Below, piece by piece: positions 29,643-48,517 of a stretch of 64,000 nt of DNA. Below the pieces are notes generated by a model. The model had not been told where the DNA came from. It was given only the letters and a program-made list of their open reading frames with translations, and did not search any database. How positions within the stretch are numbered: the stretch's first letter is position 1; every line of letters starts with the position of its first letter. Source of the stretch: a bacterium (GTDB taxonomy: Bacteria > Bacillota > Clostridia > Christensenellales > DTU072); NCBI GenBank assembly GCA_963644945.1, contig CAVIQK010000001.1, positions 3,402-67,401 on the forward strand, in the 5' to 3' direction. The position numbers and the translations under genes are program-made.

Positions 29643-29900
29643 ATGGTTGTCATTAAAGTTTGCGTGGGGAGTTCTTGTCACATAAAAGGCGCCCCCGGAG
29701 TAGTAGATCTTCTTGAAAAATACATTGACGACAACGGCATAAGAGACGAAGTCGAATTGACCGGAAGTTTTTGTGCGGGAAAATGCAACAGAAACGGTGT
29801 CACTATCACTGTTGACGACGATGTATATACAGGAATAACCAAGGAATCTTTTGGAGAATTCTTCAAAGAAAATATATTGAAAAGAGTAAAAGAATCATGA
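29643..29900 (+). CDS. Thioredoxin-like [2Fe-2S] ferredoxin, copy 2 (tandem paralog)
   Basis: 85 aa. VCVGSSCH...FCAGKC. Clear paralogy to copy 1 (VC.GSSCHIKG, VELTG.FC, the T(V/I)DD stretch). Confidence 0.65.
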   Translation: MVVIKVCVGSSCHIKGAPGVVDLLEKYIDDNGIRDEVELTGSFCAGKCNRNGVTITVDDDVYTGITKESFGEFFKENILKRVKES

Positions 29901-30841
29901 GAAAAATTACAATTATAGGCAGTGGAAAAGTCGGAGCGACAATAGCATATTCTCTAATTTGCAGAGAGATCGCCACCGATATAGTAATAATAGACGTCAA
30001 CGGCGAAAAAGCCCTTGGCGAAGCACTAGACATCAGACAAGGTCTTTCGTATGACGAGCCTTGTTCGGTCTATGCCGGAGGCTATCCCGAGGCGGTCGAT
30101 TCGGACATCGTCATCATAACATCGGGTATTGCCAGAAAACCCGACCAATCAAGACTTGACCTTATCAACACCAACATAAACATACAAAAGTCAATAATTC
30201 CCGAAATCACCAAATACGCTCCCAATGCGATTTATATTATGGTTTCCAACCCCGTTGACGTGTTGACATATACTTTTTGCAAATTGTCCGGTATCCCCGA
30301 AAATCACATCATCGGTTCCGGCACGATTATAGACACAGCAAGACTTAGAGCAAGACTCCAAGAATATACGGGACTTGACGCACGCAATATCAATGCTTAC
30401 GTTTTCGGCGAACACGGAGATTCTTCCTTTGTTCCTTGGTCCATTTCGGACATAACGGATATTCCCGTTACGGACTATTGCAACTCCGACGTGTTCAAAG
30501 ACTGCATACCTACCAAGATAAATATTCCCGAAATCGAAAAGTATATGAAGACATCCGGTTCGAGAGTAATTTCCAGAAAAGGCGCAACCTACTATGCAAT
30601 CGCATCGACCGTAAGTTATATTTGTAAAGCCATCCTCGGCAACACCAACACCGTCATGTCCGTATCGACAATGATGCATGGCGAATACGGTGTATCGGAT
30701 GTTTGCTTGTCCACACTAAATGTCATCGGCAAAAACGGTGTTCACGCCAAAGTCAACCCCGTACTTACCGACGAAGAAGTAGAAAAACTCCGCCACAGTG
30801 CCGACGTGTTGAAAAGCACGATCAAGGACCTTGGCATATAA
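29897..30841 (+). CDS. LDH-family NAD-dependent 2-hydroxyacid dehydrogenase; specificity residue predicts malate dehydrogenase
   Basis: 314 aa. IIGSGKVGAT, GTIIDTARLR and GEHGDS are LDH-like. The substrate loop reads SGIARKPDQSRLDL, with Arg where LDH has Gln102. Confidence 0.75.
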   Translation: MRKITIIGSGKVGATIAYSLICREIATDIVIIDVNGEKALGEALDIRQGLSYDEPCSVYAGGYPEAVDSDIVIITSGIARKPDQSRLDLINTNINIQKSIIPEITKYAPNAIYIMVSNPVDVLTYTFCKLSGIPENHIIGSGTIIDTARLRARLQEYTGLDARNINAYVFGEHGDSSFVPWSISDITDIPVTDYCNSDVFKDCIPTKINIPEIEKYMKTSGSRVISRKGATYYAIASTVSYICKAILGNTNTVMSVSTMMHGEYGVSDVCLSTLNVIGKNGVHAKVNPVLTDEEVEKLRHSADVLKSTIKDLGI

Positions 30842-33712: not shown

Positions 33713-35140
33713 ATGAGAAAATTCGACACCAAAGTTCAAGACCTTAAATACAGAGTATTGAGAGAAGTTTGTAGAGAAGCATGGGCCGGAAGACTTCAAG
33801 AAACCGCCATCGACATCCCGAAAATCATTGTCCCGGGCAAAGTCCCGACAATGAGATGTTGTGTGTATAAAGAAAGAGCAATTCTTACCGAACGTGTCAA
33901 GATTGCTATGGGCGGAAGAAGAGAAAACCCCAACGTGATCGAAGTCATCGATATCGCATGTGACGAATGCCCCGTCGGCGGATACGAAGTGACTGCCGGT
34001 TGTAGAGGCTGTCTTGCGCACCATTGCGAAGATGCGTGTAAATTCGGTGCGATAGAGTTTGACCACAACCACGTTGCTCATATAGACAAAACCAAATGTA
34101 AAGAATGCGGAGCATGTTCGAGAGTTTGTCCGTACAGTGCAATTCGCAATTATAAACGCCCTTGTGTCACCGCATGCAAGGTAAAAGCCATATCGATAGG
34201 CGACGAGCAACAAGCCGTCATTGACAACGAAAAATGTATTGCTTGCGGAGCCTGTGTCTATCAATGTCCGTTTGGCGCAATAGCCGACAAATCTTATGTT
34301 CTCAATGCAATAGACCTTATCAAAAAGAGCAAAGGAAACACCAAATTCAAGGTGTTTGCCGTAGTCGCTCCTTCGATTTCAAGTCAGTTTACTTATGCAA
34401 AACTCGGTCAAGTAATAAGAGGTCTTAAAGAACTCGGATTTTATACCGTAATAGAAGCGGCGCTAGGGGCCGACATGGTCGCTCAAAAGGAGTCGGAAGA
34501 ACTTGCCGAAAAAGGTTTCTTGACCAGTTCTTGCTGTCCCGCATTTGTCAATTATATCGAGAAAAACTATCCCGATTTGTTGCCTTACGTGTCTAGCAAT
34601 ATGTCCCCTATGGCGACAATCGCAAAATATATAAAAGAAAACGAAGCACCCGCAAAAGTCGTCTTTATAGGACCGTGTACCGCCAAGAAAATGGAAATCA
34701 AAAAAGATTCCGTCCGTCAGTATGTGGATGTAGCCCTTACGTTTGAGGAGTTGCAAGCCCTATTTGACAGCAAGGATATAGACATAACCACGCTTGGCGA
34801 AGACGTTCTTGACAATGCATCGTATTTTGGCAGAATATTCGCCCGCTCCGGCGGACTTTCGGATGCCGTAGCCGAAGGACTAAAAGAACAAAATCTAGAT
34901 TTTGAATTAAAACCCTTCGCTTGTGACGGCATAGAGGCATGCAAACTTGCCCTCATGCAAAAGTCCAAAGGAAGACTGGATGCCAACTTTATAGAAGGCA
35001 TGGCGTGTGTAGGCGGATGTATCGGCGGAGCCGGTTGCCTTACTCATGGCGAAAAGAACAAAGCCGAAGTGGACAAATACGGAAAATTGGCTTATGAAAA
35101 AACCATTTTGGACGCTGTTTCTGTATTGAAAACAAAATAA
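33713..35140 (+). CDS. [FeFe]-hydrogenase catalytic subunit (group B-like)
   Basis: 475 aa. Several CxxCxxCxxxC ferredoxin motifs. H-cluster motifs TSSCCPAF, IGPCTAKKME, IEGMACVGGCIGGAGC. Confidence 0.8.
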   Translation: MRKFDTKVQDLKYRVLREVCREAWAGRLQETAIDIPKIIVPGKVPTMRCCVYKERAILTERVKIAMGGRRENPNVIEVIDIACDECPVGGYEVTAGCRGCLAHHCEDACKFGAIEFDHNHVAHIDKTKCKECGACSRVCPYSAIRNYKRPCVTACKVKAISIGDEQQAVIDNEKCIACGACVYQCPFGAIADKSYVLNAIDLIKKSKGNTKFKVFAVVAPSISSQFTYAKLGQVIRGLKELGFYTVIEAALGADMVAQKESEELAEKGFLTSSCCPAFVNYIEKNYPDLLPYVSSNMSPMATIAKYIKENEAPAKVVFIGPCTAKKMEIKKDSVRQYVDVALTFEELQALFDSKDIDITTLGEDVLDNASYFGRIFARSGGLSDAVAEGLKEQNLDFELKPFACDGIEACKLALMQKSKGRLDANFIEGMACVGGCIGGAGCLTHGEKNKAEVDKYGKLAYEKTILDAVSVLKTK

Positions 35141-35154
35141 AAGTATTATATAAT
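35126..35154 (+). promoter_or_regulatory. Candidate internal promoter ahead of fumC
   Basis: TTGAAA (35126-35131), 17-nt spacer, TATAAT (35149-35154). It straddles the hydrogenase stop codon. Confidence 0.4.
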
Positions 35155-35188: not shown

Positions 35189-36568
35189 ATGGAATATCGT
35201 ATTGAAAAAGACACAATGGGCGAAGTTAGAGTCCCCGCAGACAAATATTGGGCAGCACAGACCGAAAGAAGTTTTGAAAACTTCAAAATCGGTATCGAAA
35301 AAATGCCTAGAGAAATCACTCACGCATTCGGCATTTTGAAAAAAGCCGCCGCTATTGCCAACTACAATCTCGGAAAACTCCCGAAAGAAAAAATGGATGC
35401 AATAGTTGCCGCTTGTGACGAAGTCATTTCCGGAAAACTCAACGATCATTTTCCTTTGGTCGTATGGCAAACAGGTAGCGGTACACAATCCAACATGAAT
35501 GCCAACGAAGTTATTGCCAATAGAGGCAACGAGATTGCCGGAGCAAAACTTCTCCACCCCAACGACGATATCAACAAGAGCCAAAGCTCCAACGATACAT
35601 TCCCTACGGCAATGCATATAGCCGCCGTTATCGCAATAGAAGATCATCTATTCCCTTCGATAGATAAACTTGTCGAAACGTTCAAAAGACTCGAACAAGA
35701 AAACGAAGGCATCGTCAAGAGTGGCAGAACCCACCTACAAGATGCTGTTCCGATTGCATTTTCACAAGAAATAAGCGGTTGGAGAGCAATGCTCGAAAAG
35801 ACCAAAGAACAATTAAAACTTTCTTTGTCGGGACTTAAAGAACTTGCCCTTGGCGGTACTGCTGTAGGAACAGGACTCAATGCTCCTATGGGATTTGACG
35901 AAGAAGTCGCCAAACAAGTAAGCGAAATTACAGGCAAAGATTTTGTCACTTCCGACAACAAATATCATGCACTTACCTCAAAAGATGCTCTCGTGTTCGC
36001 ACACGGTGCAATGAAAGCCCTTGCTTGCAACCTTATGAAAATAGCCAACGACGTAAGATGGCTTGCATCCGGTCCTCGTGACGGTCTCGGAGAAATCTTT
36101 ATTCCCGAAAACGAACCCGGTTCTTCCATCATGCCCGGCAAGGTCAACCCGACTCAATGCGAATCAATGACAATGGTAGCCGTTCAAGTTATGGCCAACG
36201 ACGTAGCCGTTTCTTTGGGCGCATCACAAGGCAATTTCGAACTCAACGTGTTTATGCCGGTAATCATCTACAATTTCTTGCAATCGGCAAAACTTCTCGC
36301 CGAAGGCATCGTGTCCTTCAACGATCACTGTGCGGTAGGCATCAAAGCCAACAAAGAAAAGATGGCACACAACCTCCACAATTCGTTGATGTTGGTCACC
36401 GCTCTCAATCCTTACATCGGATACGAAAATGCGGCAAAGACAGCCAAAAAAGCACATAAAGAAAATATTTCTCTAAAAGAAGCCTGTGTATCTCTCGGAT
36501 TCCTGACTGCCGAGAAGTTCGACGAAGTATTCAAACCCGAAGAGATGGCATATCCTAAAAAGAAGTAA
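35189..36568 (+). CDS. fumC: Class II fumarate hydratase
   Basis: 459 aa. [25 protein letters not shown] and the signature [11 protein letters not shown]. Confidence 0.9.
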
Positions 36569-36594
36569 TTTTTGTTTAAGTAAAGGAAAAGAAT

Positions 36595-37374
36595 ATGAAA
36601 ATTTGTTATTATCCGGGCTGTACCCTAAAAACCAAGGCAAAAGATCTCGACAAATGGGCGAGACTTTCTGCTCAAAAGTTAGGGGTAGAGATGGAAGAAA
36701 TTGAAAATTGGCAATGTTGCGGTGCCGTATATCCTACGGCACGTGACGAAATAGCCACGAAACTTTCCGCAATTAGAGCCCTTGACTATGCAAAACACAA
36801 CGGAGGCAAACTTTTGACACTCTGTTCTGCTTGTCACAACGTGATCAAACGTGTCAACGACGACATGCAAAACGATGACAACATCAAGATGAAAGCCAAC
36901 AATTATTTGGGACTCGAAGAAGCCTACCTTGGCGAAACCCAAGTAATTCACTATCTCGAAATGCTAAGAGACGTAGTAGGATTTGACAATCTAAAAAAGG
37001 CAGTAGTTAAGCCCATCGACAGAAAAATCGGTGCATTTTACGGTTGTTTATTGCTTCGTCCCGGCAAAGTCATGGCTTTTGACAATCCCGAAAATCCCCA
37101 AATTATGGAAGATTTTATCACCGCCATCGGTGGCACTCCCGTAAAATATGCTATGCGCAACGAGTGTTGCGGTGCTTACGTTGCATTGAGAACACAATCT
37201 CTTGCCGAAAAACGTAGCAACATAATTTTGGAAGATGCCAAAGCACACGGAGCAGAAGAAGTCGTTACGGCATGTCCTCTCTGCTTATACAATCTCAAAA
37301 ACAACGGGAACGTAGATATCAAAGTAAGTTACTTTACCGAACTTCTCGCAGAAGCGTTGGGGGTGAAAGAATAA
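36595..37374 (+). CDS. hdrB: Heterodisulfide reductase subunit B-like protein (two CCG domains)
   Basis: 259 aa. YYPGC...WQCCGA...LCSACHN and FYGC...NECCGA...ACPLCLYN. Confidence 0.8.
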   Translation: MKICYYPGCTLKTKAKDLDKWARLSAQKLGVEMEEIENWQCCGAVYPTARDEIATKLSAIRALDYAKHNGGKLLTLCSACHNVIKRVNDDMQNDDNIKMKANNYLGLEEAYLGETQVIHYLEMLRDVVGFDNLKKAVVKPIDRKIGAFYGCLLLRPGKVMAFDNPENPQIMEDFITAIGGTPVKYAMRNECCGAYVALRTQSLAEKRSNIILEDAKAHGAEEVVTACPLCLYNLKNNGNVDIKVSYFTELLAEALGVKE

Positions 37375-37760
37375 TGAGTAATCAAGAATATTTAGAAAAC
37401 ATTGTTCTTATAGCCGGCACAGACGTCAAAAAGTGCATGAAATGTGGCAAATGTTCCGGAAGATGCCCCGCATTTTCCGAAATGGACATAAAACCCCATC
37501 AATTCGTTTCGTATCTTGCCGAAAAGAAAATAGACAAATTGCTAAACAGCAAAGCAATTTGGAACTGCTTGTCTTGTATGGCTTGCGTGGAGAGATGCCC
37601 TAGAGGTGTCGCACCGCAAAGCGTAATCGAAGCAGTTAGAGATACAGTTGCCAGAATGCAAAACGGAAATGGACTAAAAGCCGAAGAAATTCCGTCAAAA
37701 GTGGACGAATTTATTCCGCAACAGCTCATCGTAAGCGCATTTAGAAAATATAACAAGTAA
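37374..37760 (+). CDS. hdrC: Heterodisulfide reductase subunit C-like (2x[4Fe-4S])
   Basis: ORF trimmed to MSNQEY, with TAATG overlap onto hdrB. CMKCGKCSGRCP and CLSCMACVERCP. 128 aa. Confidence 0.75.
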   Translation: MSNQEYLENIVLIAGTDVKKCMKCGKCSGRCPAFSEMDIKPHQFVSYLAEKKIDKLLNSKAIWNCLSCMACVERCPRGVAPQSVIEAVRDTVARMQNGNGLKAEEIPSKVDEFIPQQLIVSAFRKYNK

Positions 37761-37774
37761 AGAGAGAAAATAAT

Positions 37775-39766
37775 ATGCAAAAAATAGGTGTATTTATTTG
37801 TTGGTGCGGTACCAATATAGCCGCAACGGTCGATGTGGAAAGAGTCGCAAGGGAAATTAAAAAAGAGCCCGGAGTCGTCTATTCCGCAGATTATCAATAT
37901 ATGTGTTCGGAAAACGGACAACAATTGTTGAAAAAAGCCGTCAAAGAATATGGTCTTACAGGTATTGTAATAGGCTCTTGTTCTCCGAGAATGCACGAAG
38001 CGACATTTAGAAAAGCCGCCGAATCTGCGGGACTCAATCCCTTCATGGTAGAAATTGCCAACTTGAGAGAACAATGTTCTTGGATACATAAGGATAGAGA
38101 AGAAGCCACCGAAAAAGCCCTTGTTCTTGTCCGTACGGCAATCGCAAAAGTTAGACTCAATGCTCCTCTTACCGAAGGCGAAAGCCCCGTTACCAAGAGA
38201 GCCTTAGTAATCGGTGGCGGTATTGCGGGCATACAAGCAGCCCTAGATATAGCCGAAGCGGGATATCCCGTTGACATTGTCGAAAAGAATGCAACAATCG
38301 GCGGAAGAATGGCACAACTTGACAAGACTTTCCCGACTCTTGACTGCTCGGCATGTATCCTTACCCCTAAAATGGTCGATTGTGCACAAAGCGACAAGAT
38401 CGACATTTTGTCATATTCCGAAGTAGAAGAAGTCAAAGGATTTGTAGGAAAATTCTCTGTAAAAATCAAGAGAAAAGCCCGTTATGTTGACGAAACCAAA
38501 TGTACCGGTTGTAAAATCTGTATGGAAAAATGTCCGTCCAGAAAAGGACTCAACGAGTTCAACCAAAACTTAAACAACCGTACGGCAATTTATATTCCGT
38601 TTGCGCAAGCAATACCTAATGTAGCGGTTATCGATCCTACGCAGTGCATAAAACTTCGTACCGGAAAGTGCGGAATTTGTCAAAAATTCTGCGGAGCGGG
38701 TGCAATAAATTACGAAATGAAAGATGAATTTATCGAGAGAGAATACGGCGCAATAGTCGTTGCGACAGGATTTAGACCGATTGCTCTCGACAATTTCAAC
38801 GAGTTCGGCTACAACGACAATAAAGACGTCATTACGTCACTAGAACTCGAAAGACTTATGAATGCCGCAGGTCCTACCAACGGAGTTCTTCTCCGCCCGT
38901 CCGACGGCACGCACCCCAAAGTAATTACGTTTATACAATGTGTCGGATCAAGAGACGTATCCGGATGCGGAAAGCCCTATTGCTCCAAAATATGCTGTAT
39001 GTACACCGCAAAACATGCAATGCTTATTAGAGAAAAATACCCCGACACCGAAGTGCATGTCTTCTATATAGACATACGTACCCCCGGCAAGAACTACGAC
39101 GAATTTTATCGTCGTGCCGTCGAACAATACGGTGTTGACTATATAAAAGGAATGGTCGGCAAAGTGTATGAAGAGAACGGAAAACTCATGGTACAAGGAT
39201 CCAATTTGCTTGAAAACGAGCAAATCACAATTCCTTCCGATCTAGTAGTTTTGGCAACGGCAATAGAACCGGAGCCGTCCGTAAGAAAGATAGCCACCTT
39301 ACTTACCGCAAGCATAGACACCAACAACTTCCTCAACGAGTCCCACCCGAAACTTCGTCCGGTAGAAAGTCCTACCGCAGGCGTGTTCCTTGCAGGTGTT
39401 TGCCAAGGACCTAAAGATATTCCGGAAACAGTTTCACAAGCATCGGCTTGTGCCGCTAAGGTTTTGGGACTTTTGGCAAAAGACAAATTGAAGACCAACC
39501 CTTGTGTTGCAAGTCCCAACGAGTCAATGTGCAACGGTTGTTCACAATGTGCCAATGTTTGTGCATACGGCGCAATTACATATATAGATAAAGAATTCCG
39601 TCTAGGCGGAGGAAAAACCGAAACAAGAAGAGTCGCATCCGTCAACCATGCAGTATGTCAAGGTTGTGGAGCATGTACCGTAGCATGCCCGTCGGGCGCT
39701 ATGGATTTGTCGGGATTCTCGTCTAAACAGATTATGTCGGAGGTCGAAGCAATATGCAAGAGATAG
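37775..39766 (+). CDS. hdrA: Heterodisulfide reductase subunit A-like flavoprotein (FAD plus multiple [4Fe-4S])
   Basis: 663 aa. KIGVFICWCGTNIA, VIGGGIAGIQAALD, CTGCKICMEKCP, CGICQKFC, CNGCSQCANVC, CQGCGACTVACP. Confidence 0.85.
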   Translation: MQKIGVFICWCGTNIAATVDVERVAREIKKEPGVVYSADYQYMCSENGQQLLKKAVKEYGLTGIVIGSCSPRMHEATFRKAAESAGLNPFMVEIANLREQCSWIHKDREEATEKALVLVRTAIAKVRLNAPLTEGESPVTKRALVIGGGIAGIQAALDIAEAGYPVDIVEKNATIGGRMAQLDKTFPTLDCSACILTPKMVDCAQSDKIDILSYSEVEEVKGFVGKFSVKIKRKARYVDETKCTGCKICMEKCPSRKGLNEFNQNLNNRTAIYIPFAQAIPNVAVIDPTQCIKLRTGKCGICQKFCGAGAINYEMKDEFIEREYGAIVVATGFRPIALDNFNEFGYNDNKDVITSLELERLMNAAGPTNGVLLRPSDGTHPKVITFIQCVGSRDVSGCGKPYCSKICCMYTAKHAMLIREKYPDTEVHVFYIDIRTPGKNYDEFYRRAVEQYGVDYIKGMVGKVYEENGKLMVQGSNLLENEQITIPSDLVVLATAIEPEPSVRKIATLLTASIDTNNFLNESHPKLRPVESPTAGVFLAGVCQGPKDIPETVSQASACAAKVLGLLAKDKLKTNPCVASPNESMCNGCSQCANVCAYGAITYIDKEFRLGGGKTETRRVASVNHAVCQGCGACTVACPSGAMDLSGFSSKQIMSEVEAICKR

Positions 39767-40206
39767 AGAAAAACGAAGGTAATTATACACCTAATATAGT
39801 TGCATTTTGTTGCAACTGGTGTTCGTATGCGGGAGCCGACCTTGCCGGATCGTCAAGACTTTCTTATCCTGCCAACGTAAAAATTGTAAGAGTACCTTGC
39901 TCATGTAGAGTCAACCCCATGTTTATACTAAAAGCCTTCCAAAGAGGCGCAGACGGTGTAATTTTGTGTGGATGCCACCCCGGAGATTGCCACTATGTCA
40001 CCGGCAACTACTACACGAGAAGAAGAATGACCTTGCTTTTCAGTTTTCTAGATTACCTAGGAATTGAAAAAGAACGTACCAGAGTAGAATGGGTTTCCGC
40101 CGCCGAAGGTGCGAAATTCTCGGCAGTTATGAATGATTTTGTCAAACAAGTTACCGAACTTGGCGAAAACAAGAGACTCCAAGATTTGAGAGTTAAGGAG
40201 AAGTAA
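39754..40206 (+). CDS. mvhD: MvhD/FlxD-like hydrogenase iron-sulfur (delta) subunit
   Basis: 150 aa. IVAFCCNWCSYAGADLAG...VPCSCRV...CGCHPGDCHY. 13-nt overlap with hdrA. Confidence 0.8.
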   Translation: MQEIEKNEGNYTPNIVAFCCNWCSYAGADLAGSSRLSYPANVKIVRVPCSCRVNPMFILKAFQRGADGVILCGCHPGDCHYVTGNYYTRRRMTLLFSFLDYLGIEKERTRVEWVSAAEGAKFSAVMNDFVKQVTELGENKRLQDLRVKEK

Positions 40207-40207
40207 A

Positions 40208-41194
40208 ATGAACGAACTCGAAAAATTGATGGTAAAAAGAGCAACAGAACTTCTCAATTCGGGCGAAGTCAAGAGAGTCGTAGGTTGGACGAAAGGCGAA
40301 TTTATTCACGATCCGTCACCTGCATCATTCGAAACCGAAGAGGACTTAAAGAATTTCGTGTACAACGATTTTTGTGGTCCCAACCTTTCCAAATATCTCA
40401 TTGATATATCGAAAAAAGAAGGGAAAACCGCAGTATTTTTGAAGCCTTGCGACACATACAGTTTCAACGAACTTTTGAAAGAGCATAGAGTAAAACGTGA
40501 AAATATTTTGGTAATAGGTATAGAGTGTAGAGGAAAACTCGACAACTATAAACTTGAAAAGAAAGGCATCACCGGAATTACCGAAGAAGAATACAACGAC
40601 AACAAAGTCACTCTCAAAACTCTTTACGGCGAAGAATTTTGCCTCGAAAAGGGCGAAGTTTTGCTTGATAAGTGCCTTGAATGCAAAGGCAAAACCCACG
40701 TTGTCGCAGACGAAAAAATTATTATCCACGAAGTGGTAGAAGAAAACAACGATAGATTTTCTAAGGTAAGAGAGTTAGAAAAAATGACTCCTACCGAAAG
40801 ATACGAATTTTGGCAATCGCAACTTTCCAAATGCATTCGTTGCAATGCTTGTAGAAATGTTTGCCCCGCATGTTCGTGCGTGAAATGCGTGTTCGACAAT
40901 CCTCAATCGGGAGTCGCCGCCAAAGCCAACGACGTAAGTTTTGAAGAGCAACTCTACCATATAATAAGAGCCTTCCACGTATCCGGCAGATGTACGGATT
41001 GCGGAGAGTGTTCGAGAGTATGCCCCGAGAGAATACCGCTTCATCTTCTCAACAGAAAATTTATCAAAGACATCAACACTATCTATGGCGAATTCCAAGC
41101 CGGTGAAGTGGCAGAAGGAAGTTATCCTTTGACCTCATATACCGAAAAAGATATTGAGCCAAACAACGTGTTTAGTGCAACGGAGGGCAAATAA
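40208..41194 (+). CDS. Iron-sulfur protein, FlxB/C-like (4Fe-4S dicluster)
   Basis: 328 aa. CIRCNACRNVCPAC and CTDCGECSRVCPE. 1-nt gap after mvhD. Confidence 0.6.
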   Translation: MNELEKLMVKRATELLNSGEVKRVVGWTKGEFIHDPSPASFETEEDLKNFVYNDFCGPNLSKYLIDISKKEGKTAVFLKPCDTYSFNELLKEHRVKRENILVIGIECRGKLDNYKLEKKGITGITEEEYNDNKVTLKTLYGEEFCLEKGEVLLDKCLECKGKTHVVADEKIIIHEVVEENNDRFSKVRELEKMTPTERYEFWQSQLSKCIRCNACRNVCPACSCVKCVFDNPQSGVAAKANDVSFEEQLYHIIRAFHVSGRCTDCGECSRVCPERIPLHLLNRKFIKDINTIYGEFQAGEVAEGSYPLTSYTEKDIEPNNVFSATEGK

Positions 41195-42214
41195 ATGATT
41201 AAAATTAAAAGAGAAAATCTCACCAACTTCTACAAAGCCCTCAAAGAAAAAATGCCCCTATACATACCGCAAAATATTGCCGGTATGGTGAATTATGCCC
41301 CGTTCGAAGAGAATTCCGTAGTCGATATCGACACATTAAAAACGGTAAAAAGTCCCAAAGACGTTTTCTTCCCCCAAAGCGAAAACATGATGAAATTCCG
41401 CTTGGAAGGTAAAACCATATCAATAGAGGACATAAGAAAAGAAAGAGAACCCTTTTTGGTGTTCGGTGTACGTGCATGCGATTTGAAAGCCTTTGAAGTT
41501 TTGGATCACGTCTTTTTACAAGAGCCGGTTGACACATATTATAAGGAAAGAAGAGAAAAAGGTGTCATCTTTACTTTGGCATGCGGAAAACCCGAAGAAA
41601 GTTGTTTCTGCAACGTATTTGGTATCGATGCATCCGCTCCGCAAGGAGATGCGACATGCTATCTTGACGACAATTATCTCTATGTTCGTCCCAATACCGA
41701 CAAAGGCAAAGCCGTACTTTCAGGAATAGACGGAGAAACTTGCGACGAAAAGGAAGTATCTCCTATCGTAGAAAAGACCAAAGCGACAATCGAAAAACTT
41801 CCGTTTTCGCATCTTGATCTATCTTATTTCAAACCCGAAAATCTCAACGAGATATTCGAACTTCCCGATTGGCAACAGTTGTCACAAGCATGTATCGGTT
41901 GCGGAACATGTACTTTTGTATGCCCGACATGTCAATGTTTTGATATAAGAGACTTCAAAACACAAGACGGCGTAATAAGATTCCGCTGTTGGGATTCTTG
42001 CATGTATTCGGACTTCACGCAGATGGCGGCAGCCAATCCTCGTACAACTCAAATGCAAAGATTCCGTCAAAGATTTATGCATAAACTCGTATATTTCCCG
42101 TCGCAATACGGCATGTATTCGTGTGTAGGTTGCGGAAGATGCGTCAACAAATGTCCGCAACATCTCAATATTGTAAAAGTTATCAAAAAAATAGGGGGAA
42201 AGAAAAATGGTTAA
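41195..42214 (+). CDS. Iron-sulfur protein, AsrA / sulfhydrogenase-beta-like (FlxB/C-like)
   Basis: 339 aa. CIGCGTCTFVCPTCQC and CVGCGRCVNKCP. No gap after the previous gene. Confidence 0.6.
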   Translation: MIKIKRENLTNFYKALKEKMPLYIPQNIAGMVNYAPFEENSVVDIDTLKTVKSPKDVFFPQSENMMKFRLEGKTISIEDIRKEREPFLVFGVRACDLKAFEVLDHVFLQEPVDTYYKERREKGVIFTLACGKPEESCFCNVFGIDASAPQGDATCYLDDNYLYVRPNTDKGKAVLSGIDGETCDEKEVSPIVEKTKATIEKLPFSHLDLSYFKPENLNEIFELPDWQQLSQACIGCGTCTFVCPTCQCFDIRDFKTQDGVIRFRCWDSCMYSDFTQMAAANPRTTQMQRFRQRFMHKLVYFPSQYGMYSCVGCGRCVNKCPQHLNIVKVIKKIGGKKNG

Positions 42215-43034
42215 TGAGAACCTTATCCCTAATATCGGAGTAATAACCGATGTAAGAAAAGACACCGCAGACGTCAAAACATTTAGAGTGGTGGGACTTG
42301 ACGGCAAGAAGTTGTTCGAACACATGCCCGGCCAATGTGCGATGGTTTCCATCCCCGGAGTAGGCGAGTGTATGTTCTCGATTACGTCGTCGCCTACCAA
42401 CAAAGAATTTATGGAATTTTCCATCAAAAAATGCGGTTGTGTGACAGAAATAATCCATTCTTTGGAAGAAGGACAACACATTACGGTTAGAGGACCGTAT
42501 GGCAAGAATTTCCCCGTAGAAGGAGATTTCAAAGGAAAAGATTTGTTGTTCATCGCAGGTGGAATCGGTCTTGCACCTCTTCGTAGCGTCATAAATTATG
42601 TTCGCCATTATAGAGAGAACTACGGCAAAGTAGTAGTCGTGTACGGTGCAAGAAGCAAAGACGACCTTGTCGATATAGAAGAAATCCAAAAAGAGTGGAT
42701 GAACGAAAAGAATTTTGAAGTTTATTTGACGATAGACCGTCCGCAAGAAGGATGGGACGGACACGTAGGATTTGTCCCTGCATACGTCAAAGAACTAGGA
42801 CTTGATCCCACAATGACGGCAGTACTTTGCGGACCGCCGATAATGATCAAATTTACTTTGGCAGGTCTTCTAGAACTCGGATTCAAGAAAGAAAGAGTCT
42901 ATACCACTTTGGAACTTCGCATGAAGTGCGGTATAGGAAAGTGCGGAAGATGCAATGTAGGCGACAAGTTCGTATGTAAAGACGGCCCCGTTTTTAGAAT
43001 GGACCAATTAGACGAATTACCCGATGAATATTGA
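42207..43034 (+). CDS. FNR-fold FAD/NAD(P)H oxidoreductase subunit with C-terminal [2Fe-2S] (FlxA / AsrB / PyrK-like)
   Basis: 275 aa. MFSITSSP FAD motif, LLFIAGGIGLAPLRS NAD motif, CGIGKCGRC...C cluster motif. Confidence 0.75.
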   Translation: MVNENLIPNIGVITDVRKDTADVKTFRVVGLDGKKLFEHMPGQCAMVSIPGVGECMFSITSSPTNKEFMEFSIKKCGCVTEIIHSLEEGQHITVRGPYGKNFPVEGDFKGKDLLFIAGGIGLAPLRSVINYVRHYRENYGKVVVVYGARSKDDLVDIEEIQKEWMNEKNFEVYLTIDRPQEGWDGHVGFVPAYVKELGLDPTMTAVLCGPPIMIKFTLAGLLELGFKKERVYTTLELRMKCGIGKCGRCNVGDKFVCKDGPVFRMDQLDELPDEY

Positions 43035-43054
43035 TAAGTAGTAGGAGTATAAAA

Positions 43055-43729
43055 ATGGAAAAGAAAGTCAACGTTTATTTCTTTGGAAAACATTATGAGG
43101 TTCCGGAAAGCCTTACCATCATGAAGGCAATGGAATATGCCGGATACCAATTGATAAGAGGATGCGGTTGCCGTAACGGTTTTTGCGGAGCGTGTGCAAC
43201 TTTTTATCGTATAAAAGGTCAACAAGCATTAAGAACATGTCTTGCTTGCCAACAACAAGTAGAAGAAGGAATGTATGTAGCAACACTACCTTCGTTCCCG
43301 CTTGTAAAACAAGTCTATGACATCAACAAAATCAAACCGACCGAGCAAATTATGATGCAATTATATCCCGAAATATATAGTTGTATAGGTTGCAATGCTT
43401 GTACCAAGGCTTGCCCTCAAGGACTCAATGTTATGCAATACATCGCTTATGCACAACGTGGTGAATACGAAAAATGTGCAGAAGCAAGTTTTGACTGCGT
43501 AATGTGCGGACTTTGTTCGTCAAGATGCCCTGCGGGTATTTCTCATCCGCAAGTCGCAGAACTCGCAAGAAGATTGTACGGCAAATATATTGCCCCCGAA
43601 TGTAAACACCTTGAAAAGAGAGTCGCAGAAATAGAAAACGGCGAACTTGAAAAGATGATGGAAGATATTATGGGAAAACCGATATCCGAAATGAAAGAAC
43701 TTTACAACACAAGACAAATCGAAAAATAG
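43055..43729 (+). CDS. Succinate dehydrogenase/fumarate reductase iron-sulfur subunit-like protein
   Basis: Trimmed to MEKKVNVYFFG, with AGGAG SD. CRNGFCGAC...C [2Fe-2S], then CIGCNACTKACP and CVMCGLCSSRCP. 224 aa. Confidence 0.7.
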   Translation: MEKKVNVYFFGKHYEVPESLTIMKAMEYAGYQLIRGCGCRNGFCGACATFYRIKGQQALRTCLACQQQVEEGMYVATLPSFPLVKQVYDINKIKPTEQIMMQLYPEIYSCIGCNACTKACPQGLNVMQYIAYAQRGEYEKCAEASFDCVMCGLCSSRCPAGISHPQVAELARRLYGKYIAPECKHLEKRVAEIENGELEKMMEDIMGKPISEMKELYNTRQIEK

Positions 43730-43738
43730 GAGGGCAGT

Positions 43739-45340
43739 ATGTATAATTATACCGAAGAACAATTAGTTTCGATGAAAAAAGTCGAGGAAACAAGACAAGA
43801 AAGAGTCAACAACTTATATCCTCGTATGACTGCCGACGAAAAAGATGCAGTATTAAAAGAAAATCACCCCGACTATATAGATAGCGCATACGAAAGTCTA
43901 AAAGTCGGTCCCAACAAAGGCGAAAAAGTCCTTCACGAACTTGCCGACCTCTTGCAAGGCAAGTCAAGAGTTTCGGGCCTTGACATAGATTTAGAGCATC
44001 CCGCATACGACGTTGACGTTTTGGTTATCGGCGGTGGCGGAGCAGGTGCATCTACGGCAATTACCGCTCACAAAAACGGTGCCAATGTCATGATGGTCAC
44101 AAAACTCAGAATAGGCGATGCCAACACAATGATGGCAGAAGGCGGTATCCAAGCGGCAGACAAAGAGAACGATTCCCCCGCAATTCACTATCTTGATGCG
44201 TTCGGAGGCGGACACTTTGCCGCAAAACCCGAACTTCTCAAAAAACTCGTCTATGAAGCACCCGATGCAATCAAATGGCTATCCGATCTCGGAGTTATGT
44301 TCGATAAAGATAAAGACGGCAACATGGTCACCACACACGGTGGCGGAACGTCCAGAAAGAGAATGCACGCATGCAAGGACTATTCCGGCGCAGAAATAAT
44401 GCGTACACTAAGAGACGAAGTTTTCAACAGAGAAATCCCCGTAGTTGACTTTACGTCCGCAATCGAAATCATAAAAGACGACAAGGGCAATGCTGCGGGA
44501 GCAGTGCTTCTCAACATGGAAACAGGCAAAATAGAAGTAGCCAAAGCCAAGACCGTCGTCATCGCAACAGGCGGAGCAGGAAGACTTCATTATCAAGGAT
44601 TCCCGACATCCAACCACTACGGAGCAACGGCCGACGGACTCGTTCTTGCTTATAGAGCAGGCGCAAAACTTCTTTATGCAGACACTTTGCAATACCATCC
44701 TACCGGTGTTGCCGAACCTACACAAATATTCGGAGCCCTCGTCACCGAAAAGGTCCGTTCTCTCGGAGCCCAACTCGTCAACAAAGAAGGCAAAGCCTTC
44801 GTGTATTCACTTGAAACAAGAGACGTCACAGCATCTTCTATCATAAGAGAATGCAAACAAAGAAAGAATTCCGTAAAAACCACCGACGGCGAAGGCGTAT
44901 GGCTCGACACTCCTATGATTGATATGATCGGAGGCGAAGGCACTATCGAAAAACGTATCCCTGCAATGTACCGCATGTTCGGGAAATACGGCATCGACAT
45001 CAGAAAAGAGCCTATTCTCGTATATCCTACACTTCACTACCAAAACGGCGGTATTGACATCAGTGCCAACGGTGAAACGACGGCAGTCAAAAACTTGTTC
45101 GTAGCAGGCGAAGCAGTCGGAGGCATACACGGCAGAAACAGACTTATGGGCAACAGCCTTCTCGACATCATCGTATTTGGCAGAAATGCCGGTCATTTTG
45201 CGGCGGAAAGAGCAAAAGAAACCGTTGTCGGCAAACTTTCTCTCGATCACGTAAAATCATTTGAAAAAGAATTGAAAGACGCAGGACTCAATCCTACCAA
45301 ACTTTCACCTCAACTTCTTCCCGATTACAGAAGAAAATAA
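43739..45340 (+). CDS. Fumarate reductase/succinate dehydrogenase flavoprotein-like subunit (non-covalent FAD predicted)
   Basis: 533 aa. VIGGGGAGAS, LQYHPTG, SLETRD, LHYQNGGI, GRNRLMGNSLLD. Asn replaces the flavinylation His. Confidence 0.7.
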   Translation: MYNYTEEQLVSMKKVEETRQERVNNLYPRMTADEKDAVLKENHPDYIDSAYESLKVGPNKGEKVLHELADLLQGKSRVSGLDIDLEHPAYDVDVLVIGGGGAGASTAITAHKNGANVMMVTKLRIGDANTMMAEGGIQAADKENDSPAIHYLDAFGGGHFAAKPELLKKLVYEAPDAIKWLSDLGVMFDKDKDGNMVTTHGGGTSRKRMHACKDYSGAEIMRTLRDEVFNREIPVVDFTSAIEIIKDDKGNAAGAVLLNMETGKIEVAKAKTVVIATGGAGRLHYQGFPTSNHYGATADGLVLAYRAGAKLLYADTLQYHPTGVAEPTQIFGALVTEKVRSLGAQLVNKEGKAFVYSLETRDVTASSIIRECKQRKNSVKTTDGEGVWLDTPMIDMIGGEGTIEKRIPAMYRMFGKYGIDIRKEPILVYPTLHYQNGGIDISANGETTAVKNLFVAGEAVGGIHGRNRLMGNSLLDIIVFGRNAGHFAAERAKETVVGKLSLDHVKSFEKELKDAGLNPTKLSPQLLPDYRRK

Positions 45341-45351
45341 TAGGAGACAAT

Positions 45352-46821
45352 ATGGAAGAATATAAAGAAAACGGTGTCGAAGAAGAATCTATCGCAACCG
45401 AGGATGAAGTAGTGTTAGAAGACGGCGAAGCCTCTGTTCAAAAGGCAAACGCCCCCAAAACCCCTAAAAAGTGGGTAAAATGGGTGGTGCTTGGCATTGT
45501 AGCGGCACTTGTCATAGGTGTTGTTGCATGGTGCATATACAGCGCAACACAAGGTAAAGGCATCGACGGAGTGCTTGGTATTTCTACGGTTACGGCACTT
45601 CTATTCGGTGTGTTCCTTGTAGCCGCCCTCGGATACCTTCTCGGTAGCGTCACGATAAAAGGTGTCAACCTCGGCACTGCCGGAGTATTTTTGGTAGCCA
45701 TCGCATTTGGATGTATTTGCACGATAAAAGGACTAAAAGACGTACCGGTACTCGGTAAGTTCTATATAGAAGGTTCCTCGTCGGCACTATATAAATATTA
45801 CGGAAGCATCGTCCAAAACGTAGGACTTGTATTGTTCGTTGCATCTGTCGGGTTTATCGCAGGCCCCAACTTCTTCAAGAACTTGAAGAAAAATGCAAAG
45901 TCTTATGTAGTACTCGGAGCAATCATCATCGCAACGGGCGCCCTTCTTTCCGTCCTCTTTACACTGGCACTGAAAGGAACTCTTGGCGACGTAGCCAAAG
46001 AATTCTCGGTCGGAATTTTGTCGGGTGCATTGACAACTACCCCGGGATATTCGGCAGCGCTAGAAGCAAGTAGCACAGACGGAGCCATGATAACTCTCGG
46101 ACATGCTATTGCATATCCGTTCGGAGTAGTAGGTGTTGTTTTGTTCGTACAATTAGTACCTAAATTTATGAAAGCCGACATGGAAAAAGAAAGAGCCCTT
46201 CTAAAAATAGACGGTGCCGAACTCAAAGAGAAGAAAGAAGGTTTGTTTGTTTGCGATCCCTTCGGACTCATGCCTTTCGGCCTTGCAGTCGTAGCAGGAC
46301 TCATCTTGGGAGCCATCAAAATACCGCTTACCGGTGAAGGTTACAACGGAACATGTTTCTCGCTAGGAACAACCGGCGGTGTGCTTATTATGTGCCTAAT
46401 CTTCGGACACTTCGGCCACATGGGGAAACTTTCCCTTGAAATTCCCGAAAAAACCGCCAAGGTTTTCCGTGAATTCGGTCTTATGATGTTCTTGATAGGA
46501 GCAGGTGTTGCCGGCGGCGCACAACTCGTCAACCAAATCAACAATTACGGTGGTCTTGTAATCTTGTGGGGATTCTTGGGCGGTGCCATTATGACACTCG
46601 TTCCTATGATAGTAGGTTTCTTCTTCGCAAAATACATTTTGAAGATAAGCCTTCTCAACAACCTTGGCTCGATCACCGGCGGAATGACATCGACTCCCGC
46701 CCTCGGTACCCTTATTTCTACCGCAGGGACAGACGACGTCGCATCTGCCTATGCATCAACTTATCCGATTGCGCTCGTTTTGATTGTACTTGCGTCGCAA
46801 TTTATAGTAACATTAATGTAG
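45352..46821 (+). CDS. AAE (aspartate:alanine exchanger / YidE-YbjL-SucE) family transporter, short form
   Basis: 489 aa. Two homologous membrane halves (GVNLGTAGVFLVAIAFG and FSLGTTGGVLIMCLIFG) joined by about 30 aa. No RCK_C domains. Acidic N-terminal tail of about 40 aa. Confidence 0.6.
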   Translation: MEEYKENGVEEESIATEDEVVLEDGEASVQKANAPKTPKKWVKWVVLGIVAALVIGVVAWCIYSATQGKGIDGVLGISTVTALLFGVFLVAALGYLLGSVTIKGVNLGTAGVFLVAIAFGCICTIKGLKDVPVLGKFYIEGSSSALYKYYGSIVQNVGLVLFVASVGFIAGPNFFKNLKKNAKSYVVLGAIIIATGALLSVLFTLALKGTLGDVAKEFSVGILSGALTTTPGYSAALEASSTDGAMITLGHAIAYPFGVVGVVLFVQLVPKFMKADMEKERALLKIDGAELKEKKEGLFVCDPFGLMPFGLAVVAGLILGAIKIPLTGEGYNGTCFSLGTTGGVLIMCLIFGHFGHMGKLSLEIPEKTAKVFREFGLMMFLIGAGVAGGAQLVNQINNYGGLVILWGFLGGAIMTLVPMIVGFFFAKYILKISLLNNLGSITGGMTSTPALGTLISTAGTDDVASAYASTYPIALVLIVLASQFIVTLM

Positions 46822-46860: not shown

Positions 46861-48465
46861 ATGACAAAAATCGATTTAACGAAATATGGCATTAAAAACG
46901 TCACCGAAGTAGTTTACAACCCGTCATACGAAATGCTTTTCGAAGAAGAAACCAGAAAAGATCTTACCGGTTATGAAAAGGGACAAGTTAGCGAACTCGG
47001 TGCAGTCAATGTTATGACAGGTATTTATACCGGACGTTCTCCTAAGGATAAATTTATCGTCATGGACGAAAACTCCAAAGACACCGTTTGGTGGACTTCG
47101 GACGAATTCAAAAACGACAACCATCCCGCAAGCAAAGAAACATGGCAAGCAGTCAAAGACATTGCAGTCAAAGAACTCAGTGGCAAGAGATTGTTCGTCG
47201 TAGATGCATTTTGCGGTGCCAACAAAGACACTCGTATGGCAGTTAGATTCATCGTCGAAGTCGCATGGCAAGCACACTTCATCAAGAATATGTTTATCGT
47301 GCCTACACAAGAAGAACTCGAAAACTTCGAACCCGACTTCGTTGTTTACAATGCATCGAAAGCCAAAGTCGAAAATTACAAAGAACTCGGTCTCAATTCC
47401 GAAACAGCCGTTGTCTTCAATATCACATCGAGAGAACAAGTTATAATCAACACTTGGTACGGTGGAGAAATGAAGAAAGGTATGTTCTCAATGATGAACT
47501 ACTATTTGCCCCTAAAAGGCATTGCATCAATGCACTGCTCGGCAAATACCGATATGGACGGAAAGAACACCGCAATATTCTTCGGTCTTTCCGGAACAGG
47601 CAAAACCACCCTTTCCACAGATCCTAAACGTCTCCTAATCGGCGACGACGAACACGGCTGGGACGACAACGGAGTATTCAACTTTGAAGGTGGCTGCTAC
47701 GCAAAAGTTATCAACCTCGACAAAGATTCCGAACCCGATATTTACAACGCAATCAGAAGAAATGCCCTTCTCGAAAACGTAACTCTTGACGAAAACGGCA
47801 AAATCGATTTTGCAGACAAGAGCGTTACGGAAAACACTCGTGTTTCCTATCCTATCCAACACATCGAAAAGATTGTCAGACCTGTTTCCTCCGCTCCCGC
47901 AGCGAAAAACGTCATATTCCTTTCTGCCGATGCATTCGGAGTGCTTCCTCCTGTCTCAATCTTGACTCCTGAACAAACTCAATACTACTTCCTCTCCGGA
48001 TTTACCGCAAAACTTGCAGGAACCGAAAGAGGTATAACCGAGCCTACTCCTACATTCTCCGCATGTTTCGGACAAGCCTTCCTAGAACTTCATCCTACAA
48101 AATATGCAGAAGAACTCGTCAAGAAAATGCAAAAGAGCGGAGCCAAAGCATACTTGGTCAACACCGGTTGGAACGGCACCGGAAAACGTATCTCCATCAA
48201 AGATACAAGAGGAATTATCGATGCAATTTTGAGTGGCGACATCAACAATGCCCCCACCAAGAAAATCCCCTATTTTGACTTTGAAGTACCTACAAAACTC
48301 AATGGCGTAGATTCAGGCATCCTCGATCCTAGAGACACCTACAAAGATGCAAAAGATTGGGAAGTCAAGGCTCTTGACCTTGCAGGAAGATTTACAAAGA
48401 ACTTTGCAAAATATGCAACCAACGAAGCAGGCAAAGCACTTGTAAAAGCAGGTCCTAAAGCATAA
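46861..48465 (+). CDS. pckA: Phosphoenolpyruvate carboxykinase (ATP)
   Basis: 534 aa. [29 protein letters not shown], typical C-terminus. Confidence 0.9.
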
Positions 48466-48490
48466 TAAAAACCAAAACGGTAAAAAGAAA

Positions 48491-48517
48491 AGGAGTTCTC
48501 AGAACTCCTTTTTTTTG
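48491..48517. terminator. Bidirectional intrinsic terminator (pckA / convergent dipeptidase gene)
   Basis: AGGAGTTC-TCA-GAACTCCT with an upstream A-run and a downstream T8. Confidence 0.75.

What the first reader, a model, noticed from the sequence alone, without database searches (positions are those of the whole stretch)
43055..45340. Anchor-less FrdAB pair: flavinylation His replaced by Asn, all-[4Fe-4S] third cluster, 90-aa N-terminal extension
SEEN, by eye-alignment to E. coli FrdA/SdhA:
- Substrate and catalysis motifs are retained: LQYHPTG, LVTEKVRSLGA, SLETRD (proton-shuttle Arg), LHYQNGGI, GRNRLMGNSLLD.
- The covalent-FAD motif R-S-H-T-x-A-A-x-G-G reads G-D-A-N-T-M-M-A-E-G-G, so His is replaced by Asn.
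- About 90 residues precede the GGGGAG dinucleotide fold, whereas classical FrdA starts with it.
- The FeS partner has CRNGFCGAC...C, CIGCNACTKACP and a four-Cys CVMCGLCSSRCP. Classical SdhB/FrdB carries the three-Cys [3Fe-4S] motif CxxxxxCxxxCP at that position.
ESTABLISHED: loss of covalent flavin abolishes succinate oxidation but not fumarate reduction. A fourth Cys that converts centre S3 to [4Fe-4S] is typical of type E SdhB and of TfrB, enzymes that lack a classical quinone site.
INFERENCE: this is a unidirectional, cytoplasmic fumarate reductase module. The N-terminal extension may be a docking element.
Basis: partly seen in the sequence, partly recalled or inferred. Interest (0 to 1): 0.7.

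Follow-up and report, generated by a model that had tools for sequence, protein, structure and literature searches.

The report
Soluble fumarate reductase wired to Hdr
The two genes encode a cytoplasmic fumarate reductase with non-covalent flavin that sits at the end of a 13-gene "succinate operon" with an NADH dehydrogenase/heterodisulfide-reductase (Flx-Hdr) complex; this arrangement was already proposed, but never shown, to split electrons from NADH between fumarate and ferredoxin.

Summary
FrdA-like (43739-45340) keeps every fumarate-binding and catalytic residue. It has Asn129 where SdhA/FrdA have the flavinylation His, and it carries a well-folded 91-aa N-terminal extension. FrdB-like (43055-43729) has one 2Fe-2S motif and two complete CxxCxxCxxxCP motifs.

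- FrdA also lacks the whole C-terminal SdhA/FrdA domain.
- Asn at this position is the norm in non-covalent soluble fumarate reductases (Shewanella Fcc3 has it) and occurs in 139/139 family members surveyed.
- The pair is not free-standing. It ends a tight operon: fumC-hdrB-hdrC-hdrA-flxD-flxC-flxB-flxA-frdB-frdA-exporter-pckA.

The same operon is published as the "succinate operon" of Pseudoclostridium thermosuccinogenes. A related cluster is published for tubeworm symbionts. Both are proposed, without biochemistry, to be electron-bifurcating fumarate reductases.

The operon order is conserved in dozens of gut and rumen Christensenellales species genomes. Close FrdA relatives were found at ≥586 places in the one-genome-per-species collection. 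Across Archaea and Bacteria the commonest core is HdrC-HdrB-FrdB-FrdA.

Best reading (0.55): NADH enters through Flx and reaches the HdrA flavin, which bifurcates to ferredoxin and, via HdrC/HdrB/FrdB, to the FrdA flavin and fumarate.

This is a new member of a known but untested kind.

The parts
43739..45340 (+). FrdA-like flavoprotein, 533 aa. It has a FAD_binding_2 core with capping domain, Asn129 at the flavinylation position, and no C-terminal SdhA/FrdA domain.
   Evidence: Pfam PF00890, E=2.9e-70, residues 93-474. Best NCBIfam hit is TfrA, 335 bits against a cut-off of 718, covering profile positions 5-425 of 546. PDB phmmer alignments. AF2 model pLDDT 95.7. Foldseek top hits are E. coli FrdA, Fcc3 and SdhA, with about 450 aligned columns.
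43739..44011 (+). N-terminal extension of FrdA, residues 1-91: two helices, a small hairpin and a helix. Conserved HPDY and GxNxGE motifs; no Cys.
   Evidence: pLDDT 90-98 over this stretch. Conserved in family members from Archaea and Bacteria. No PDB sequence match and not covered by Foldseek hits. No Pfam match.
44123..44125 (+). Codon of Asn129, at the position of the FAD-binding His of SdhA/FrdA.
   Evidence: Asn in 139 of 139 homologues. Fcc3 has Asn at the same position.
43055..43729 (+). FrdB-like iron-sulfur subunit, 224 aa. It has a 2Fe-2S motif (C39, C44, C47, C65), two CxxCxxCxxxCP motifs (C110-C120, C148-C158) and a helical C-terminal tail.
   Evidence: Pfam Fer2_4, Fer2_3 and Fer4 dicluster families. 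NCBIfam TfrB N-terminus, E=4e-11. Invariant Cys. Weak matches to FrdB/SdhB chains. AF2 pLDDT 85. Foldseek is weak: SdhB TM about 0.3, HdrC TMt 0.4.
36595..37374 (+). HdrB, with two complete CCG motifs.
   Evidence: E=3.1e-35 to HdrB of 8rvv. NCBIfam HdrB 136.9 bits, SdhE (MFR anchor) 137.1 bits, and the TfrB C-terminal part. Cys pattern read from the sequence.
37374..37760 (+). HdrC, a dicluster ferredoxin-like subunit.
   Evidence: NCBIfam HdrC, E=7e-18. Also matches TfrB positions 130-224.
37775..39766 (+). HdrA, the flavin subunit that bifurcates in methanogen Hdr complexes.
   Evidence: E=4.8e-201 over the full length to 5odc_A. NCBIfam HdrA2, 794 bits.
39754..40206 (+). MvhD/FlxD, a 2Fe-2S adaptor.
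   Evidence: Pfam FlpD, E=1e-55. Matches the C-terminal MvhD part of HdrA2.
40208..41194 (+). FlxC-like FeS protein.
   Evidence: Relative of FdhB in the Fdh-Hdr complexes, 7bkb_E, E=4.9e-27. Pfam Fer4_8.
41195..42214 (+). FlxB-like FeS protein (sulfhydrogenase beta / AsrA type).
   Evidence: Pfam Fer4_22. NCBIfam HydB, ShyB and AsrA.
42207..43034 (+). FlxA-like subunit with NAD(P)H-, FAD- and 2Fe-2S-binding parts.
   Evidence: Pfam NAD_binding_1, FAD_binding_6 and DHODB_Fe-S_bind. NCBIfam HydG and AsrB.
35189..36568 (+). Class II fumarase, first gene of the conserved block.
   Evidence: TIGR00979, 741.8 bits, above its cut-off. A promoter-like site scoring 11/12 lies at 35126-35154; this is weak because the scan was not above chance.
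45352..46821 (+). AAE-family (AspT/YidE/YbjL) transporter, a candidate succinate exporter.
   Evidence: Pfam Asp-Al_Ex in two copies. TIGR01625. It follows frdA in most related loci. The exporter role is inferred.
46861..48465 (+). ATP-dependent PEP carboxykinase, last gene of the block. A hairpin between the convergent genes follows it.
   Evidence: Pfam PEPCK_ATP, E=3e-205. Terminator-like hairpin at 48488-48512.
33713..35140 (+). Monomeric group B [FeFe] hydrogenase, a candidate sink for reduced ferredoxin.
   Evidence: TIGR04105, 558.7 bits, above its cut-off. Present near the operon in many related loci.
29897..30841 (+). Ldh/Mdh-family dehydrogenase, possibly the malate dehydrogenase of the pathway.
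   Evidence: Pfam Ldh_1_N and Ldh_1_C. NCBIfam names it L-LDH, just above cut-off. The loop reads GIARKPDQSR, with Arg where LDHs have Gln102. The MDH reading rests on my own knowledge.

Best explanation
frdB-frdA encode the fumarate-reducing end module of a cytoplasmic Flx-Hdr-Frd complex.

Shown here:
- The flavoprotein has a complete fumarate/succinate active site.
- It has no flavinylation His and no C-terminal domain.
- Its FeS partner has Cys ligands for one 2Fe-2S and two 4Fe-4S clusters.
- Both genes are co-operonic with a full-length HdrA, an HdrB with two intact CCG motifs, HdrC, MvhD/FlxD, and the NADH-input subunits FlxABC.
- The operon is framed by fumarase, a dicarboxylate-type exporter and PEP carboxykinase.

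Inferred path:
1. NADH is oxidised at FlxA.
2. Electrons pass through FlxB/FlxC and FlxD to the HdrA flavin.
3. That flavin bifurcates. One electron goes uphill to ferredoxin.
4. The other goes downhill through HdrC and HdrB to the three FrdB clusters, then to the non-covalent FAD of FrdA, which reduces fumarate.

Net reaction: 2 NADH + fumarate + 2 Fd(ox) -> 2 NAD+ + succinate + 2 Fd(red). With E0' of +33, -320 and about -450 mV this gives roughly -35 to -50 kJ/mol.

The neighbouring [FeFe] hydrogenase, or Rnf elsewhere in the genome, would then reoxidise the ferredoxin. The non-covalent, lower-potential flavin makes the module a one-way fumarate reductase.
For: - Active site and Asn129.
- Asn, the N-terminal extension and the short C-terminus in 139/139 homologues.
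- Operon content and packing, with gaps of 48 bp or less.
- HdrA matches the bifurcating subunit 5odc_A over its full length, E=4.8e-201.
- HdrB, E=3e-35, with both CCG motifs.
- FlxC is related to the FdhB subunits that feed Hdr complexes.
- The order fumC-hdrBCA-flxDCBA-frdBA holds in every related Christensenellales locus with enough flank.
- Across phyla, frdBA is linked to hdrCB, often with hdrA-mvhD, flx or korAB, in several rearranged orders. This argues for function rather than inherited synteny.
- Rosetta-stone evidence. Methanogen TfrB is matched piecewise by FrdB (positions 19-94), HdrC (130-224) and HdrB (262-487). A natural FrdB-FrdA fusion exists.
- Literature. The same operon in P. 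thermosuccinogenes is transcribed and co-regulated, rising about 4-fold under CO2 limitation, and is proposed to couple succinate formation to ferredoxin reduction. H2 in the headspace abolished succinate formation (PMC7282089). The tubeworm-symbiont clusters carry the same proposal (PMC6315080), with co-expression reported for the Hdr-Flx/rTCA cluster as a whole, tfrAB excepted (PMC11636981). It is still called 'suggested' in 2026 (PMC13147460).
Against: - No enzyme of this kind has been purified. Bifurcation, ferredoxin dependence and the physical complex are all inferred.
- In many phyla the core hdrCB-frdBA occurs with no hdrA within 10 kb. In some genomes frdBA stands alone, is fused, or sits beside a NuoF-like gene. 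The module therefore does not need HdrA.
- HdrB normally reduces a disulfide. An in-line electron-transfer role for its non-cubane clusters has no direct precedent other than TfrB and the type E SdhE analogy.
- FrdB matches SdhB/FrdB only weakly by sequence and fold.
Confidence: 0.55

Rival explanations
1. Thiol relay. HdrBC plus FrdBA form a split, four-subunit thiol:fumarate reductase (Tfr-like) that oxidises a low-molecular-weight or protein dithiol. Flx-HdrABC separately reduces the resulting disulfide with NADH while reducing ferredoxin. Fumarate reduction and bifurcation would be coupled through a diffusible thiol/disulfide pair, not by direct electron transfer.
For: TfrB equals FrdB-like plus HdrC-like plus HdrB-like parts. 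The hdrC-hdrB-frdB-frdA core is widespread without hdrA. HdrB keeps both complete CCG motifs, which form the disulfide-reducing site in Hdr. The published models leave room for a DsrC-like carrier (PMC11636981).
Against: The operon encodes only one HdrBC set, which would have to serve both HdrA and FrdAB. The operon has no candidate thiol carrier or thiol biosynthesis genes. CoM and CoB are not expected in Clostridia (own knowledge).
Confidence: 0.12
2. Plain NADH:fumarate reductase. The Flx-Hdr subunits only wire NADH to FrdAB, and no ferredoxin is reduced. This would be functionally like the five-subunit soluble NADH-dependent enzyme of Hydrogenobacter thermophilus.
For: A relative 47% identical sits in a frdB-frdA-nuoF-like three-gene cluster, which suggests direct NADH input. 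Soluble NADH-dependent fumarate reductases exist (PMC13147460).
Against: HdrA is full-length, with all its cluster motifs and both ferredoxin-like domains. Seven extra subunits are a costly way to build a reaction that needs one NADH module. The physiology reported for P. thermosuccinogenes fits ferredoxin coupling.
Confidence: 0.12
3. Independent enzymes. FrdAB takes electrons from reduced ferredoxin or flavodoxin on its own. Flx-Hdr serves another acceptor and is co-transcribed only because both act in redox balancing.
For: Stand-alone frdBA pairs and a stand-alone FrdB-FrdA fusion exist.
Against: The linkage of frdBA with hdr genes recurs across Archaea and Bacteria in different gene orders. 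hdrB lies directly upstream of frdB in 31 of 79 diverse loci. The order is conserved in every Christensenellales locus with enough flank.
Confidence: 0.13
4. Different substrate. The flavoprotein reduces or oxidises another compound, for example acting as an L-aspartate oxidase or as a reductase of another enoate.
For: NadB models also score well: TIGR00551 gives 273 bits. NadB also has non-covalent FAD.
Against: The score is below the NadB cut-off of 452.75. NadB has a C-terminal domain and no FeS partner. The operon contains fumarase, PEP carboxykinase and a dicarboxylate-type exporter. All fumarate-binding residues are kept.
Confidence: 0.05

Closest known systems
'Succinate operon' of Pseudoclostridium thermosuccinogenes: fumarate hydratase, Flx-Hdr (7 genes), fumarate reductase (2 genes), putative succinate transporter. 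Koendjbiharie & van Kranenburg 2019 preprint; PMC7282089.
   Same: Same gene content, gene count and order as window 35189-46821. Same proposed function: fumarate reduction coupled to ferredoxin reduction through Flx-Hdr.
   Different: Different host: uncultured gut Christensenellales rather than a thermophilic Hungateiclostridiaceae. Here pckA closes the operon, and a group B [FeFe] hydrogenase, a sensory hydrogenase and Rex lie upstream. I could not read the preprint, so I do not know whether it noted Asn129, the N-terminal extension or the missing C-terminal domain. I did not compare the sequences directly.
tfrAB-hdrABC-flxABCD-korABCD rTCA clusters of Ca. Endoriftia and Thioflavicoccus mobilis (PMC6315080; PMC11636981).
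   Same: Hdr and MvhD are linked to an AB-type fumarate reductase, with a direct-transfer FBEB model. The P0121-type loci (Bathyarchaeia and others) show korDABC-hdrA-mvhD-hdrC-hdrB-frdB-frdA with a FrdA 56% identical to the window protein.
   Different: Those clusters serve autotrophic CO2 fixation and include 2-oxoglutarate:ferredoxin oxidoreductase. The window operon serves fermentative succinate formation.
Thiol:fumarate reductase TfrAB of Methanothermobacter.
   Same: TfrA is the best NCBIfam match of FrdA. TfrB is matched piecewise by FrdB, HdrC and HdrB. TfrB has 2Fe-2S plus two 4Fe-4S clusters and no membrane anchor (own knowledge, Heim et al. 1998).
   Different: The window FrdA scores 335 bits against a cut-off of 718. 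TfrA-like representatives keep the His (GKAH-T) and the C-terminal domain. TfrB is one fused chain, whereas here there are three genes plus HdrA, MvhD and Flx.
Shewanella flavocytochrome c3 (Fcc3) and yeast Osm1-type soluble fumarate reductases.
   Same: Non-covalent FAD with Asn at the His position. No C-terminal SdhA domain. A short capping-domain loop of the type TE-x-VR-x-x-GA. One-way fumarate reduction (own knowledge). Foldseek rank 2.
   Different: Fcc3 is periplasmic and takes electrons from a fused tetrahaem domain. It has no FeS subunit and no N-terminal extension of this kind.
Type E succinate:quinone reductase (Sulfolobus/Acidianus SdhABCD) and Campylobacter MFR (SdhABE).
   Same: The FeS subunit has a fourth Cys in the third cluster motif. 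The partner is an HdrB-like CCG protein instead of a haem b anchor. Window HdrB scores 137 bits on the SdhE model.
   Different: Those flavoproteins keep the flavinylation His and the C-terminal domain and work with quinones. Here HdrA, HdrC, MvhD and Flx are present.
Classical quinol:fumarate reductase FrdABCD and SdhABCD.
   Same: FAD and capping-domain fold (TM about 0.72, rmsd about 3 Å over 450 columns) and identical catalytic residues.
   Different: The window pair has no His for covalent FAD, no C-terminal domain, no [3Fe-4S] motif and no membrane anchor genes.

Membership tests
SdhA/FrdA flavoprotein superfamily (Pfam FAD_binding_2) | FAD-binding domain with inserted capping domain. 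| tested here: met
   PF00890, E=2.9e-70. Foldseek to 1kf6_A, E=4.5e-37.
SdhA/FrdA flavoprotein superfamily (Pfam FAD_binding_2) | Substrate-binding and proton-shuttle residues (His, Thr-Glu, Arg, His, Arg). | tested here: met
   H320, T336-E337, R361, H433 and R468 align with the FrdA/SdhA residues and are invariant.
Classical complex II (quinol:fumarate / succinate:quinone oxidoreductase) | His for 8-alpha-N3-histidyl FAD. | tested here: not met
   Asn129. Asn in 139/139 relatives.
Classical complex II (quinol:fumarate / succinate:quinone oxidoreductase) | C-terminal flavoprotein domain (PF02910). | tested here: not met
   No Pfam hit. The alignments stop about 35 residues before the end.
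Classical complex II (quinol:fumarate / succinate:quinone oxidoreductase) | Three-Cys [3Fe-4S] motif in the FeS subunit. | tested here: not met
   CVMCGLCSSRCP here against CTFVGYCSEVCP in 1kf6_B.
Classical complex II (quinol:fumarate / succinate:quinone oxidoreductase) | Membrane anchor subunit(s) C/D next to A/B. | tested here: not met
   All neighbours are identified, the gaps are 48 bp or less, and none is an anchor.
SdhB/FrdB iron-sulfur subunit | N-terminal 2Fe-2S domain plus C-terminal dicluster domain of SdhB fold. | tested here: inconclusive
   Domain order and Cys ligands fit. Sequence matches are weak: dhsB 35.5 bits against a cut-off of 88, FrdB chains E about 1e-5 to 1e-6. Foldseek to SdhB gives TM about 0.3. 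The dicluster domain is closer to HdrC/RnfC.
Thiol:fumarate reductase TfrAB | TfrA equivalog score. | tested here: not met
   335 bits against a cut-off of 718. Only profile positions 5-425 of 546 are covered.
Thiol:fumarate reductase TfrAB | FeS subunit fused to CCG (HdrB-like) domains. | tested here: not met
   FrdB ends after the dicluster domain and a helical tail. The CCG domains are in the separate HdrB.
Thiol:fumarate reductase TfrAB | Uses CoM-SH plus CoB-SH as electron donor. | not testable with these tools
   Needs enzyme assays.
HdrABC-MvhD type flavin-based electron-bifurcating module | Full-length HdrA with FAD and its FeS cluster motifs. | tested here: met
   E=4.8e-201, query residues 3-660 against 5-649 of 5odc_A. 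Cys motifs are visible in the sequence.
HdrABC-MvhD type flavin-based electron-bifurcating module | HdrB with two CCG motifs, HdrC, and MvhD. | tested here: met
HdrABC-MvhD type flavin-based electron-bifurcating module | Demonstrated coupled reduction of ferredoxin and a high-potential acceptor. | not testable with these tools
   No biochemical report was found for any Flx-Hdr-Frd complex.
Flx-Hdr-fumarate reductase 'succinate operon' (P. thermosuccinogenes type) | fumarate hydratase, 7 Flx-Hdr genes, 2 fumarate reductase genes and a putative transporter in one operon. | tested here: met
   Window genes 35189-46821 match the published gene list and count.
L-aspartate oxidase NadB | NadB equivalog score and C-terminal helical domain. 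| tested here: not met
   273 bits against a cut-off of 452.75. No C-terminal domain.
Fcc3/Osm1-type soluble fumarate reductase | Non-covalent FAD signature (Asn at the His position) and no C-terminal domain. | tested here: met
Fcc3/Osm1-type soluble fumarate reductase | Single polypeptide with its own electron-input domain (haem or FMN) and no FeS subunit. | tested here: not met
   The separate FrdB is translationally adjacent (9-bp gap). There is no haem or FMN domain.

The most novel reading that the evidence does not exclude
The FrdA(N-extension, Asn)/FrdB pair together with HdrBC is an ancient cytoplasmic fumarate reductase class, shared by Archaea and Bacteria, that accepts different electron-input modules. 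In gut Christensenellales it would form an 11-subunit Flx-Hdr-Frd complex. That complex would be the first HdrA-type bifurcating enzyme with a carbon-carbon double bond (fumarate) as its high-potential acceptor. Together with the adjacent [FeFe] hydrogenase it would let these bacteria turn NADH into H2 at the cost of fumarate. This would link their succinate and H2 output to their known association with methanogens.
Probability: 0.4. Interest if true: 0.75.

Novelty: new member of a known kind. Interest (0 to 1): 0.5.

Why it matters
Fumarate is a textbook high-potential acceptor, but a fumarate-driven flavin-based electron bifurcation has only been proposed from gene clusters. If it is real, succinate fermentation in quinone-free anaerobes would yield reduced ferredoxin, and hence H2 or an ion gradient through Rnf, instead of wasting about 60 kJ per NADH.

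The operon occurs, in conserved order, in dozens of Christensenellales species genomes from human and ruminant guts, and close FrdA relatives were found at ≥586 places in the one-genome-per-species collection. The FrdAB/HdrBC core occurs in many archaeal and bacterial phyla. The enzyme could therefore matter for gut H2 and succinate budgets and for variants of the reductive TCA cycle.

The survey also names cultured hosts in which it can be tested: Anoxynatronum sibiricum and A. buryatiense, and P. thermosuccinogenes.

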